This document shows, one piece after another, positions 38 to 4,832 of a stretch of 64,000 nt of DNA. The notes beneath the pieces are model-generated. The model saw only the letters and a list, made by a program, of their open reading frames with translations, did not search any database and was not told where the DNA came from. The position numbers and the translations under genes are program-made. The stretch is from a virus (lineage: Duplodnaviria; Caudoviricetes), in the IMG/VR virus record IMGVR_UViG_3300044266_000210, positions 32,001-96,000 of that record. One strand, 5' to 3'. The first letter of the stretch is position 1; each line of letters begins with the position of its first letter.

Positions 38-919
38 TTAAATAGCCATTGGTGCTTTAATAGTATCGTGGCTTTCGTAGTCTTCCAACTCAACATCTTC
101 CATTGTAAATTTATTGATATCTGTTATTGCAGAGTTCAACTTTAATTTTGGCAATGGTAATGGATTTCTTGATAATTGCTCTCGAACCTGATCAAAATGG
201 TTTTGATAAATGTGTGCATCACCGATGGTAATGATTAAATCACCAACTTCTAATCCACATACCTGGGCAATCATATGTGTGAATAAAGCATAAGATGCAA
301 TGTTAAATGGCACTCCAAGAAACATGTCTGCACTTCGTTGATACATCTGACAACTAAGTTTACCATTGTTTACATAGAATTGACTCATCATATGACATGG
401 TGGCAATGCCATTAACTCTAGTTCTCCGGGGTTCCACGCACTAATGATATGTCTGCGACTATAAGGATCTGTTTTGATACCGTTAATTAAATCAGATAAT
501 TGGTCTAAGTTTTGTAATACAACTTTGTTGATTCGGATAAGCGGCTTGCGCCAACGTCGCCACTGCACTCCGTAGACCCTACCAAGGTCGCCTGGGTGTC
601 GTCTAAGTCGTTTATTAGCCCAATAATCTGCACTAGCGTTGGCCGTCCATATAGTTGTCTTGCTAGTGTTACGATCTCCATGTAGTATCTCAGCGAGGCG
701 TCTTTCATCTCCGCTTCCTTCTATAAACCATAACAGTTCGCTAACAACAGCACGCCATGCTAACTTTTTAGTAGTGAGTGCTGGGAATCCTTGTTGTAGA
801 TTAAACCTAAGTTGCATACCAAAGATACCTCTGGTTCCAACTCCGGTTCGGTCTGGACGATCATCGCCTGATTCTAAAATTTCTTTTAAGGCGCCAAGAT
901 AAACGGTATCTGCTGTCAT
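38..919 (-). CDS. thyA: Thymidylate synthase
   Basis: DRTGVGT, ELLWF, MALPPCH (catalytic Cys), QRSADMFLGVPFNIASY. Start moved to MTADTV (ATG at 919, TAATG-coupled to the upstream ORF). Confidence 0.97.
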   Translation of the reverse strand: MTADTVYLGALKEILESGDDRPDRTGVGTRGIFGMQLRFNLQQGFPALTTKKLAWRAVVSELLWFIEGSGDERRLAEILHGDRNTSKTTIWTANASADYWANKRLRRHPGDLGRVYGVQWRRWRKPLIRINKVVLQNLDQLSDLINGIKTDPYSRRHIISAWNPGELELMALPPCHMMSQFYVNNGKLSCQMYQRSADMFLGVPFNIASYALFTHMIAQVCGLEVGDLIITIGDAHIYQNHFDQVREQLSRNPLPLPKLKLNSAITDINKFTMEDVELEDYESHDTIKAPMAI

Positions 920-1092
920 TAAATTTTTGTTATTTGTTTTTCGTTGTAGATGTGTAACGCACCTGCAACTTCTGGTACAGTACACTCTACGACTACTCGA
1001 CGCTCGCCTGCAAGCGTATCAAATACTGCAACTACAACACCGGGCCATTTATAACCCGATGTTTTTTCTACTTTATCACCGATACTGAACAT
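919..1092 (-). CDS. 57-aa SH3-fold DfrB/R67-type (type II) dihydrofolate reductase homolog; missing from ORF track
   Basis: Manual translation: MFSIGDKVEKTSGYKWPGVVVAVFDTLAGERRVVVECTVPEVAGALHIYNEKQITKI. Aligns by eye to the R67 core (FxxGDRVRKKSGxxWxG...T...VE...GSVQIY). One-nucleotide overlaps with both neighbours (TGATG, TAATG). Confidence 0.75.
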   Translation of the reverse strand: MFSIGDKVEKTSGYKWPGVVVAVFDTLAGERRVVVECTVPEVAGALHIYNEKQITKI

Positions 1093-1751
1093 CAGGCTTC
1101 GGCTCCTTCTTTTTTGGCCTTGGCCTTGGGAGGATCGATAGCATCTGCTTGTTTACGTAATGCTTGTGCCTCTTTAAAGAGCTTATCTGCTTTGCTACGA
1201 AGTTGAGTAGGACTTAGTGTTTCTGTTGACTCAACTGGTGCTTCGTAGTTGACAGAACCGGAAGTTGTACGACCTGGGTCGTCTGCAGGAATTACAGGAG
1301 TATCAAAATTTGTATCTAACTCTGCATTAACTTCTTTGCTAGTCTTTACATTATCTTTGATACTACCGTCTCTGACAGCAAGGTCGTCAACACTTACACC
1401 TCGTTGTTCTGCAATTAGCTGATTTAGTTCGCTTAGAACAACAGTTACATTTGGATTCCCAGTAGGAGTCATTAGAACCATACTGGTAGGAACTTTTTTC
1501 AACATTCCACGAGAATGAAGAGCGTTCAACATTGAACTTCCGTCCTGAAATCTGCGAACAGCTAGGACATCTGCCAGTTCATTTGCTTCTTGGCCGCTAG
1601 GGTCTTGGATGACACTCATTAAAGAGTCGTGCCACGAATCTGGTAAACTGCCTGTGCCTATAACCAGAGCACTACCAGAATCACCTGGCAATGTTCTGTA
1701 GGCTACGGCGACTTTAGCACCGTTGTTTTTCATTTTGCCTACATGCTTCAT
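1092..1751 (-). CDS. Hypothetical phage protein
   Basis: 219-aa ORF, GGAAA upstream, coupled to the next gene. Confidence 0.75.
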   Translation of the reverse strand: MKHVGKMKNNGAKVAVAYRTLPGDSGSALVIGTGSLPDSWHDSLMSVIQDPSGQEANELADVLAVRRFQDGSSMLNALHSRGMLKKVPTSMVLMTPTGNPNVTVVLSELNQLIAEQRGVSVDDLAVRDGSIKDNVKTSKEVNAELDTNFDTPVIPADDPGRTTSGSVNYEAPVESTETLSPTQLRSKADKLFKEAQALRKQADAIDPPKAKAKKEGAEA

Positions 1752-4803: not shown

Positions 4804-4832
4804 ATTATACAGTCAATCTTGTGTCTTGTCAA
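4804..4832 (-). promoter_or_regulatory. Perfect-consensus sigma70 promoter
   Basis: TTGACA-N17-TATAAT. Confidence 0.85.

What the first reader, a model, noticed from the sequence alone, without database searches (positions are those of the whole stretch)
919..1092. Unannotated DfrB/R67-type DHFR homolog in the slot directly before thyA
Seen: a 57-aa ORF below the track cutoff, translationally coupled on both sides. It matches the R67 SH3 core at G-D-x-V-x-K-x-S-G, W38, G40, T48, V-E58 and G64, with LHIY in place of the VQIY active-site motif. W45 and H62 equivalents are absent. Established: ThyA generates dihydrofolate and needs a DHFR; T4-like phages place frd beside td; DfrB enzymes are unrelated to FolA and intrinsically trimethoprim resistant, and their native role is unclear. 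Inference: this phage uses a DfrB-fold enzyme as the DHFR partner of thyA, which would give a native context and reservoir for a resistance family. No FolA is visible in the window.
Basis: partly seen in the sequence, partly recalled or inferred. Interest (0 to 1): 0.78.

Follow-up and report, generated by a model that had tools for sequence, protein, structure and literature searches.

The report
Phage R67-type DHFR coupled to thyA
A 57-residue gene just upstream of this large phage's thymidylate synthase gene is a real relative of the tiny trimethoprim-insensitive R67/DfrB dihydrofolate reductase and probably recycles the folate that thymidylate synthase uses up, but this phage arrangement was already published in 2025.

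Summary
Window 919-1092 (-) encodes a 57-aa protein. Its start overlaps the stop of the upstream gene (TGATG), and its stop overlaps the ATG of a canonical thyA (TAATG).

- **Homology to R67/DfrB:** Pfam DHFR_2 gives E=1.7e-3, below the curated cut-off. A profile of 69 relatives hits R67 DHFR over the whole domain (E=2e-6). The AF2 model (pLDDT 97.7) has R67 DHFR as its seven best PDB matches (TM 0.81, Z 9.7).
- **Key residues:** the K32 and W38 equivalents are kept, and the pore motif reads LHIY.
- **Selection:** dN/dS is 0.03-0.13.
- **Functional link to thyA:** the overlap is conserved in the lineage. Pelagiphage Kolga shows the same adjacency independently. Rhizobium phages RHEph10 and RHph_N1_10 carry an unannotated in-frame DfrB-ThyA fusion.
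- **No rival enzyme seen:** no FolA, ThyX or RibD_C lies in the 131.5-kb record, which is only about 37% complete.
- **Prior publication:** PMC12486381 (2025) assayed viral "cluster II" DfrB homologs next to ThyA and an LHIY DfrB-TS fusion.
- **Caveat:** 41 of 48 related viral contigs lack ThyA.
- **Earlier sightings:** the scan noted this family on three other genomes.

The tetramer and the enzyme activity are untested. Verdict: new member of a known kind.

The parts
919..1092 (-). 57-aa DfrB/R67-like SH3 protein (P0001). K10 = K32, W16 = W38, and pore motif L46-H47-I48-Y49 = V66-Y69.
   Evidence: ORF and translation. Pfam DHFR_2 E=0.0017. Family profile vs R67 E=2e-6. AF2 pLDDT 97.7. Foldseek top 7 hits are R67 DHFR, TM 0.81. 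VIA Z 9.7. dN/dS 0.03-0.13.
38..919 (-). thyA, canonical thymidylate synthase of 293 aa. Its ATG (919-917) overlaps the TAA of the DfrB-like ORF by one base, and it has no Shine-Dalgarno of its own.
   Evidence: Pfam Thymidylat_synt 358.6 bits, E=2e-107. PPCH, RRHIISAWNP, YQRSAD and PFNIASYAL motifs visible. It is the only ThyA in the record. Sequence of the junction.
1103..1109 (-). GAAGGAG Shine-Dalgarno, 10 nt upstream of the DfrB-like ATG and inside the end of the upstream ORF.
   Evidence: Read directly from the sequence.
1092..1751 (-). Upstream 219-aa ORF of unknown function (phrog_15894). Its TGA overlaps the DfrB-like ATG. It is conserved directly upstream in all ThyA-linked relatives (cluster c6).
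4804..4832 (-). Candidate promoter (perfect TTGACA-17-TATAAT). It heads the co-directional run AAA ATPase - DUF2201 - 92 aa - 87 aa - 219 aa - DfrB-like - ThyA. This is a consensus match only.
   Evidence: Gene order.

Best explanation
The ORF encodes a stand-alone DfrB-type (R67-like, SH3-fold) dihydrofolate reductase of the divergent phage-borne 'cluster II / LHIY' kind.

The mechanism below is inferred from R67 and from assayed relatives. Four 57-aa protomers would form a D2 tetramer with a single central pore lined by L46-H47-I48-Y49. K10 at the pore mouths would bind the phosphate and glutamate tails of NADPH and dihydrofolate. Hydride transfer would occur by proximity. The enzyme would be intrinsically insensitive to trimethoprim.

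The gene is translated from its own strong Shine-Dalgarno. The downstream thyA has none and starts on the last base of the DfrB stop codon (TAATG). ThyA is therefore probably made by termination-reinitiation, in step with the reductase. Together the two proteins would close the dTMP cycle during infection: ThyA converts dUMP plus CH2-THF into dTMP plus DHF, and the DfrB-like enzyme returns DHF to THF. This is the same job and the same gene order as T4 frd-td, done with an unrelated fold.

Shown here: homology, fold, conserved residues, purifying selection, coupling geometry, synteny and fusion in other phages, and no FolA, ThyX or RibD_C in the record. Inferred: tetramer, DHFR activity, trimethoprim insensitivity and translational coupling.
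For: Homology and fold:
- Pfam DHFR_2 is the best hit for the single protein (E=0.0017). NCBIfam trim_DfrB gives E=4e-4.
- A 69-sequence family profile hits only R67 DHFR chains in the PDB, across the whole domain (E=2e-6 to 7e-5).
- 25 of 69 relatives hit DHFR_2 on their own, best 1.1e-6.
- The AF2 model has pLDDT 97.7. The seven best Foldseek PDB hits are all R67 DHFR at TM 0.81, 30% identity, 57 of 57 columns. VIA gives Z 9.4-9.7 at rmsd 1.9 A.

Functional residues:
- K10 (=K32), L46, H47 and I48 are at least 90% conserved in the family. Position 49 reads Y, or F in some of the rows shown. W16 (=W38) is W, F or Y.
- PMC12486381 reports K32 as the most conserved residue among active homologs, and the motif rule nonpolar/polar/nonpolar/aromatic, which LHIY fits.
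- The same paper measured an LHIY homolog (DfrB-TS): kcat 2.3 per s, Km for DHF 28 uM, trimethoprim resistant, tetramer.

Real gene: dN/dS is 0.03-0.13 with saturated dS. One relative is 98% identical in protein but 81% in DNA.

Link to ThyA:
- The stop/start overlap occurs here and in 6 of the 7 ThyA-bearing IMG/VR relatives, with gaps of -1, -4 or -8. In the seventh, ThyA lies within 30 nt by coordinates. It also occurs in 10 metagenome contigs.
- Pelagibacter phage Kolga has a DfrB-like domain 4 nt before its ThyA.
- Rhizobium phages RHEph10 and RHph_N1_10 carry the domain, with GALHIY, fused in frame to ThyA.

No alternative enzyme: no FolA, RibD_C or ThyX lies in the own record. No FolA lies in 48 related viral records or in 5 phage genomes.
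Against: - The single sequence scores 18.6 bits, below Pfam's gathering score of 25. PHROGs gives no hit.
- The W45 and H62 equivalents are absent. A 2-residue insertion sits just before the pore strand, close to where R67's dimer-dimer contact lies.
- One assayed viral cluster II homolog (motif LHIF) is a poor catalyst, 'more of a binder than a catalyst'.
- Most of the family is not tied to a thymidylate synthase. Only 7 of 48 related viral records have ThyA. All 7 records that are at least 90% complete have no ThyA, ThyX or FolA. In close jumbo-phage relatives the gene sits in another slot, near FolE and before a MazG-like gene.
- The record is only about 37% complete, so a FolA elsewhere in this phage is not excluded.
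Confidence: 0.78

Rival explanations
1. The protein is chiefly a small NADPH- or nucleotide-binding, or oligomerising, SH3 module, and its DHF reduction is negligible or incidental. It sits beside thyA because small genes in these phages move among nucleotide-metabolism and replication clusters, not because it supplies THF.
For: PMC12486381 itself proposes binding or oligomerisation as the principal native role of the domain, and found the viral LHIF homolog to be 'more of a binder than a catalyst'. 41 of 48 related viral records lack ThyA, and complete 35-61 kb phages carry the gene within ligase, nuclease, helicase and primase modules with no thymidylate synthase at all. The gene occupies different slots in related jumbo phages.
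Against: The exact LHIY motif belongs to an assayed, efficient enzyme. Whenever ThyA is present in a related record, it lies immediately downstream (7 of 7, plus 10 contigs). Adjacency in Kolga and in-frame fusion in Rhizobium phages arose independently. No other DHFR lies in the record.
Confidence: 0.1
2. The protein is a promiscuous NADPH-dependent reductase whose main substrate is another pterin or 7,8-dihydropterin-like compound linked to the phage's FolE and 7-deazaguanine chemistry. DHF is only a side substrate.
For: In about 17 close relatives the gene lies roughly 2.3 kb downstream of GTP cyclohydrolase I, among glycosyltransferase-like, HhH-GPD-like and MazG-like genes. The own genome keeps that FolE-MazG locus. 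Earlier unchecked notes of this scan report folE or queD near other copies and a deazaguanine cluster in this window.
Against: In this genome the gene is absent from the FolE-MazG slot, where a different 75-aa ORF sits, and is coupled to thyA instead. Fusions are to ThyA, not to Que or Fol enzymes. No assay or precedent for such a substrate was found in the papers read.
Confidence: 0.07
3. The ORF is a chance open frame or a leader peptide for thyA with no folded product.
For: It is very short, and it scores below Pfam's gathering threshold.
Against: There are 388 close homologs and 698 clusters at 50% identity. dN/dS is 0.03-0.13. AF2 gives pLDDT 97.7. The ORF has its own strong Shine-Dalgarno.
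Confidence: 0.01

Closest known systems
Viral 'cluster II' DfrB homologs and the DfrB-TS fusion of Lemay-St-Denis et al., Mol Biol Evol 2025 (PMC12486381)
   Same: SH3-type DfrB domain at about 30% identity to DfrB1. The B4 motif is LHIY, identical to DfrB-TS. The lysine at position 32 is conserved. The genomes are Caudoviricetes with ThyA beside the gene and no FolA. The proposed role is recycling DHF for dTMP synthesis.
   Different: That study found only 20 viral homologs, 4 of them in cluster II. This one belongs to a large uncultured freshwater jumbo-phage subfamily that Pfam and PHROGs do not annotate. It is a bare 57-aa domain with no N-terminal tail, overlapping thyA by one base. A direct sequence comparison with the paper's proteins was not possible because its supplement is not held.
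R67 DHFR / DfrB1 (PDB 1VIE, 2RK1) and its Q67H mutant (2P4T)
   Same: The five-stranded SH3-like barrel superposes at TM 0.81, rmsd about 2 A, over all 57 residues. K32, W38, G40, V57-E58, G64, I68 and Y69 are kept. The natural His at the Q67 position makes the Q67H mutant the best-scoring PDB sequence.
   Different: Identity is only 30-33%. V66 is L and Q67 is H. W45 and H62 are absent. There is a 2-residue insertion before the pore strand and no disordered N-terminal 20 residues. The gene is phage-borne and operonic with thyA, rather than an integron or plasmid cassette selected by trimethoprim.
T4 frd-td (FolA-type DHFR gene directly upstream of, and overlapping, the thymidylate synthase gene; from my own knowledge of T4, not checked here)
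   Same: Same gene order, same overlapping stop/start, and same metabolic logic.
   Different: The reductase is a non-homologous fold (SH3 tetramer against a Rossmann-like monomer). This is a non-orthologous displacement.
Vibrio phage R39Z R67-family DHFR plus ThyA (Microb Genom 2026, PMC13749740)
   Same: A phage annotated as carrying an R67-family DHFR and a ThyA as auxiliary metabolic genes, with a modelled homotetramer and pore.
   Different: There the two genes are far apart (ORF7 and ORF57) and the DHFR is recognised by PHROGs. Here the genes are coupled and the protein escapes PHROGs.

Membership tests
DfrB / R67-type (type II) DHFR domain superfamily, Pfam PF06442 in the broad sense of PMC12486381 | Statistically supported sequence homology to the DfrB SH3 domain over its full length | tested here: met
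   The family profile (69 sequences) hits R67 chains at E=2e-6 to 7e-5, profile positions 7-63 against chain residues 6-60. 25 of 69 relatives hit PF06442 at E<0.01, best 1.1e-6. The single sequence gives E=0.0017.
DfrB / R67-type DHFR (Pfam PF06442, strict curated membership) | Score at or above Pfam's gathering cut-off (25 bits) | tested here: not met
   18.6 bits. By Pfam's operational rule it would stay unannotated, so I file it as a divergent homolog and not as a curated PF06442 member.
Clinical DfrB1-DfrB10 alleles (NCBIfam NF000331 trim_DfrB) | Score at or above the curated cut-off (137 bits) and the VQIY motif | tested here: not met
   20.2 bits, and the motif is LHIY. It is not one of the clinical resistance alleles.
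DfrB / R67-type DHFR domain superfamily | Five-stranded SH3-like barrel superposable on R67 | tested here: met
   AF2 pLDDT 97.7. R67 entries rank 1-7, with TM 0.81 and Z 9.4-9.7 at rmsd 1.9 A over 55 residues. The margin over generic KOW and Tudor barrels is only about 1 Z unit.
Catalytically active DfrB homologs (criteria of PMC12486381) | Lys or Arg at position 32 | tested here: met
   K10 aligns with K32 and is at least 90% conserved in the family. The criterion is quoted.
Catalytically active DfrB homologs (criteria of PMC12486381) | B4 pore motif of the form nonpolar/polar/nonpolar/aromatic | tested here: met
   L46-H47-I48-Y49. L, H and I are at least 90% conserved, and the last position is Y or F. 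LHIY is the motif of the assayed DfrB-TS.
Catalytically active DfrB homologs | DfrB1-like homotetramer with a central pore (W38 at the dimer-dimer interface) | not testable with these tools
   W16 aligns with W38.
Catalytically active DfrB homologs | NADPH-dependent DHF reduction that is insensitive to trimethoprim | not testable with these tools
   This needs an enzyme assay. It is known only for relatives in PMC12486381.
ThyA (partner gene, PF00303) | Pfam score above the cut-off, and the catalytic Cys and dUMP-binding motifs | tested here: met
   358.6 bits against a cut-off of 24.3. PPCH, RRHIISAWNP, YQRSAD and PFNIASYAL are present.

The most novel reading that the evidence does not exclude
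The LHIY-type DfrB domain may be a very abundant small enzyme that is largely native to phages. There are 698 clusters at 50% identity, many in jumbo phages and in complete 35-61 kb phages that encode no thymidylate synthase. Its ancestral or principal role would then be broader than serving phage ThyA. One possibility is a promiscuous NADPH-dependent pterin reductase or nucleotide-pool module, tied to FolE/MazG/DNA-modification and replication clusters, that has been repeatedly recruited to ThyA: by adjacency here and in Kolga, and by fusion in Rhizobium phages. Phages would then be the main natural home of the fold from which trimethoprim-insensitive DHFRs arise.
Probability: 0.15. Interest if true: 0.65.

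Novelty: new member of a known kind. Interest (0 to 1): 0.36.

Why it matters
The finding adds a clean natural example of non-orthologous displacement. A 57-residue SH3 protein sits in the same upstream position, with the same overlapping stop/start, as T4 frd has before td. It also shows that standard annotation (Pfam cut-off, PHROGs, GenBank records) misses a very large phage-borne branch of the DfrB family, including in-frame DfrB-ThyA fusions in cultured Rhizobium phages.

This supports the 2025 proposal that DHF recycling for dTMP synthesis is one genuine native role of the DfrB fold. It also widens the known environmental pool of trimethoprim-insensitive reductases.

It does not open a new question, because the concept and the biochemistry are already published. 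The one open point it sharpens is what the same protein does in the many phages that carry no thymidylate synthase.

Tried and rejected
- **PHROGs on the protein:** no family at E<=0.01.
- **megablast of the first 4 kb against GenBank phages:** no match.
- **Search for fused forms among longer proteins:** 29 hits, none with a ThyA or other informative domain.
- **Sequences of the paper's assayed proteins** (to place this protein in its cluster numbering): no supplement is held.
- **FolA in the longer ENA/JGI contigs of the closest relatives:** those records are not held for whole-record search. FolA absence therefore rests on IMG/VR fragments and GenBank phages only.
- **Idea that the conserved 280-aa neighbour 'c3' of the alternative context is a cryptic thymidylate-synthase-like enzyme:** rejected. 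It has no Pfam, PHROG or PDB hit, only unnamed viral clusters in the Atlas, and a low-confidence all-helical model (pLDDT 59), unlike the alpha/beta ThyA fold. No fold search was run on that model because its confidence is too low.
- **Search for the upstream 219-aa gene in five 'alternative context' records** (to see whether they have an empty thyA slot): nothing was found, and those fragments probably do not reach that region.
- **The 462-aa 'representative' of the protein's 90% cluster:** it looks by eye like an unrelated isocitrate-dehydrogenase-type protein, which makes this a clustering artefact and not a fusion.

Full report
**1. The observation**

Window 919-1092 on the minus strand is an ATG-to-TAA ORF of 57 codons. 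On the minus strand the sequence reads ...GAAGGAGCCGAAGCCTGATGTTC... at its start and ...ACAAAAATTTAATGACAGCA... at its end.

- The ATG (1092-1090) shares a base with the TGA of the upstream 219-aa ORF.
- The TAA (921-919) shares its last base with the ATG (919-917) of the downstream gene.
- A GAAGGAG Shine-Dalgarno lies 10 nt before the small ORF. Nothing comparable precedes the downstream ATG.
- The downstream gene (38-919) is a canonical ThyA: Pfam Thymidylat_synt at 358.6 bits, with the PPCH nucleophile motif and the dUMP-binding motifs visible.
GDKVEKTSG aligns with GDRVRKKSG. K10 = K32, W16 = W38, G18 = G40, T26 = T48, VE = V57-E58, G44 = G64 and LHIY = V66-Y69. The W45 and H62 equivalents are absent.

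**2. Is it really a DfrB relative?**

For the single sequence the evidence is suggestive only. Pfam DHFR_2 gives E=0.0017 and 18.6 bits, below the 25-bit cut-off. NCBIfam trim_DfrB gives E=4e-4. phmmer against PDB sequences gives E=0.011, with the R67 Q67H mutant as the best hit.

The family makes it solid:

- A full HMMER scan of 1.84 billion representatives found 698 clusters at E<=1e-3. The word-indexed search found 388 near relatives of 57-62 aa, all 'hypothetical', none with a Pfam call.
- A profile of 69 representatives (alignment A1) hits only R67 DHFR chains in the PDB, end to end. E=2e-6 for Q67H and 6e-5 for wild type. The next hit is at E=0.56.
- 25 of the 69 hit DHFR_2 individually.
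- AF2 with this alignment gives pLDDT 97.7.
- The seven best Foldseek PDB matches are all R67 DHFR at TM 0.81, 30% identity, 57 of 57 columns.
- VIA-align gives Z 9.4-9.7 at rmsd 1.9 A. That is about one Z unit above generic KOW and Tudor barrels.

The gene is under strong purifying selection. dN/dS is 0.03-0.13 against 48 viral relatives, with saturated synonymous sites. One relative is 98% identical in protein and 81% in DNA.

**3. Functional residues**

In the family, K10 (=K32), L46, H47 and I48 are at least 90% conserved. Position 49 reads Y, or F in some of the rows shown, and W16 is W, F or Y.

PMC12486381 reports that the lysine at position 32 is the most conserved residue of active homologs. 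It also reports that active pore motifs follow nonpolar/polar/nonpolar/aromatic, and LHIY fits that rule. The paper's Table 1 lists an LHIY protein, the DfrB-TS fusion, with kcat 2.3 per s, Km for DHF 28 uM, trimethoprim resistance and tetramer/octamer states. A viral LHIF protein is listed as a weak catalyst.

This is the main untested step, since the same paper finds tetramerisation decisive for activity.

**4. Link to ThyA**

The record that holds the window is a 131.5-kb IMG/VR virus fragment. CheckV rates it 37% complete, which implies a genome of roughly 350 kb. It has one ThyA and no FolA, ThyX or RibD_C.

Evidence from relatives:

- Of 48 related IMG/VR loci, 7 records contain ThyA, and in all 7 it lies immediately downstream of the small gene. 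By coordinates it is within 30 nt. ORF calling shows overlaps of 1, 4 or 8 nt in six of them.
- Ten metagenome contigs carrying a 95%-identical protein show the same order: AAA ATPase - DUF2201 - 92 - 89 - 217 - DfrB-like - ThyA, with a 4-nt overlap.
- These loci share flanking genes, so they count as one evolutionary event.

Independent events exist:

- In Pelagibacter phage Kolga a DfrB-like domain forms the C-terminus of gp36, 4 nt before a ThyA.
- In Rhizobium phages RHEph10 and RHph_N1_10 the domain is in frame with the annotated ThyA, with no stop between. It is 42% identical to the window protein at E=4e-10 and carries GALHIY. The real ORFs are 370 and 331 aa, an unannotated DfrB-ThyA fusion.
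- None of the five GenBank phage genomes tested has FolA.
- 0 of 48 IMG/VR records have FolA or ThyX.

**5. What cuts the other way**

- 41 of the 48 records have no ThyA. The 7 that are at least 90% complete (35-61 kb phages) have no ThyA, ThyX or FolA at all. There the gene sits among ligase, PD-(D/E)XK nuclease, SNF2 helicase and primase genes.
- In about 17 close jumbo-phage relatives (81-91% identical) the gene occupies another slot. It lies roughly 2.3 kb downstream of GTP cyclohydrolase I, after glycosyltransferase-like genes, and before an HhH-GPD-like gene, a MazG-like pyrophosphohydrolase and a conserved Trp-rich 280-aa protein of unknown fold.
- The window's own genome keeps that FolE...MazG locus at 97.6-103.5 kb, but a different 75-aa ORF sits where relatives have the DfrB-like gene.
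- The small gene therefore moves between nucleotide-metabolism slots. In the lineage where it sits at thyA it is tightly coupled to it.
- For the family as a whole, a role beyond serving a phage ThyA remains open. Possibilities are boosting the host's folate cycle, acting on another pterin substrate, or binding.

**6. Comparison with what is known**

They report that all four viral cluster II DfrB homologs lie near ThyA, one of them 5 bp away, in genomes without FolA, and that three of the four were experimentally active. [quoted passage not shown]

Earlier work had found DfrB homologs in Pseudomonas and Vibrio phages (PMC9835603). A 2026 phage paper annotates an R67-family DHFR and a ThyA as auxiliary genes (PMC13749740). 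GenBank already names some phage proteins 'R67 dihydrofolate reductase'.

The geometry mirrors T4 frd-td. This is from my own knowledge and was not checked here.

What this window adds:

- A new, unannotated member from a very large uncultured subfamily.
- The bare 57-aa form, overlapping thyA by one base.
- As by-products, the mis-annotated fusions in cultured Rhizobium phages and the alternative FolE/MazG slot.

The scan's earlier unchecked notes record the same LHIY family on three other genomes, next to folE, a ligase, and folE/queD. This agrees with the contexts I saw.

**7. Verdict**

- Observation: confirmed.
- Interpretation: supported, but already published.
- Membership: a divergent DfrB-superfamily homolog. 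It is not a curated PF06442 member and not a clinical DfrB allele.
- Function: DHFR partner of ThyA, confidence about 0.78. The tetramer and the activity are inferred.
- Novelty: new member of a known kind.
- Interest: about 0.36.

Noticed in passing
L070:2387-3499 (Rhizobium phage RHEph10, JX483881) and L069:2495-3490 (RHph_N1_10, MN988505): The annotated thymidylate synthase genes start at an internal Met. The open frame continues upstream, with no stop, through a DfrB-like domain carrying GALHIY. These cultured phages therefore appear to encode an unannotated DfrB-ThyA fusion of 331-370 aa. tblastn hits at nearly the same coordinates suggest the same domain in RHph_N1_15 and N2_6, but their frames were not checked.
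   Followed up: partly
L006:1039-5473 and L012-L028; own genome G000:C1:97600-103520 (beyond the window end): An alternative conserved slot for the DfrB-like gene exists in close jumbo-phage relatives. The order is GTP cyclohydrolase I - glycosyltransferase-like - small ORFs - DfrB-like - (HhH-GPD-like) - MazG-like - Trp-rich 280-aa unknown. The window's own genome keeps this locus, but a different 75-aa ORF sits in the DfrB position.
   Followed up: partly
L020:6672-7508 (alignment A2); own genome G000:C1:98417-99253: A conserved Trp-rich protein of about 280 aa ('c3') follows the MazG-like gene. It has no Pfam, PHROG or PDB sequence match, only unnamed viral clusters in the ESM Atlas, and a low-confidence all-helical AF2 model (pLDDT 59).
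   Followed up: partly
L060:11084-11902 versus L059:11055-11240: A GIY-YIG endonuclease gene lies directly after thyA in most contigs of the closest relatives but is missing in one otherwise syntenic contig. This presence/absence pattern suggests a mobile homing endonuclease next to thyA.
   Followed up: no
window 4804-4832 (-): A perfect TTGACA-17-TATAAT promoter consensus lies upstream of the AAA ATPase gene. It heads the tightly packed minus-strand run that ends with DfrB-like and thyA.
   Followed up: no
P0286, P0287, P0289: The 57-aa protein's 90%-identity cluster in the protein collection lists a 462-aa protein as its representative. Read by eye, that protein looks like an unrelated isocitrate-dehydrogenase-type enzyme. 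This looks like a clustering or indexing artefact, not a fusion.
   Followed up: partly
P0122 (2305 aa), P0125 (7221 aa), P0252 (2833 aa): Giant proteins match the 57-aa query in 10-17 separate stretches, with E down to 5e-30. They may be arrays of related SH3-like repeats, or the matches may reflect compositional bias.
   Followed up: no
L003:2713-3165 (Pelagibacter phage Kolga gp36): Here the DfrB-like domain is the C-terminal third of a 150-aa protein. The N-terminal part is unannotated and was not analysed. A ThyA starts 4 nt downstream.
   Followed up: partly
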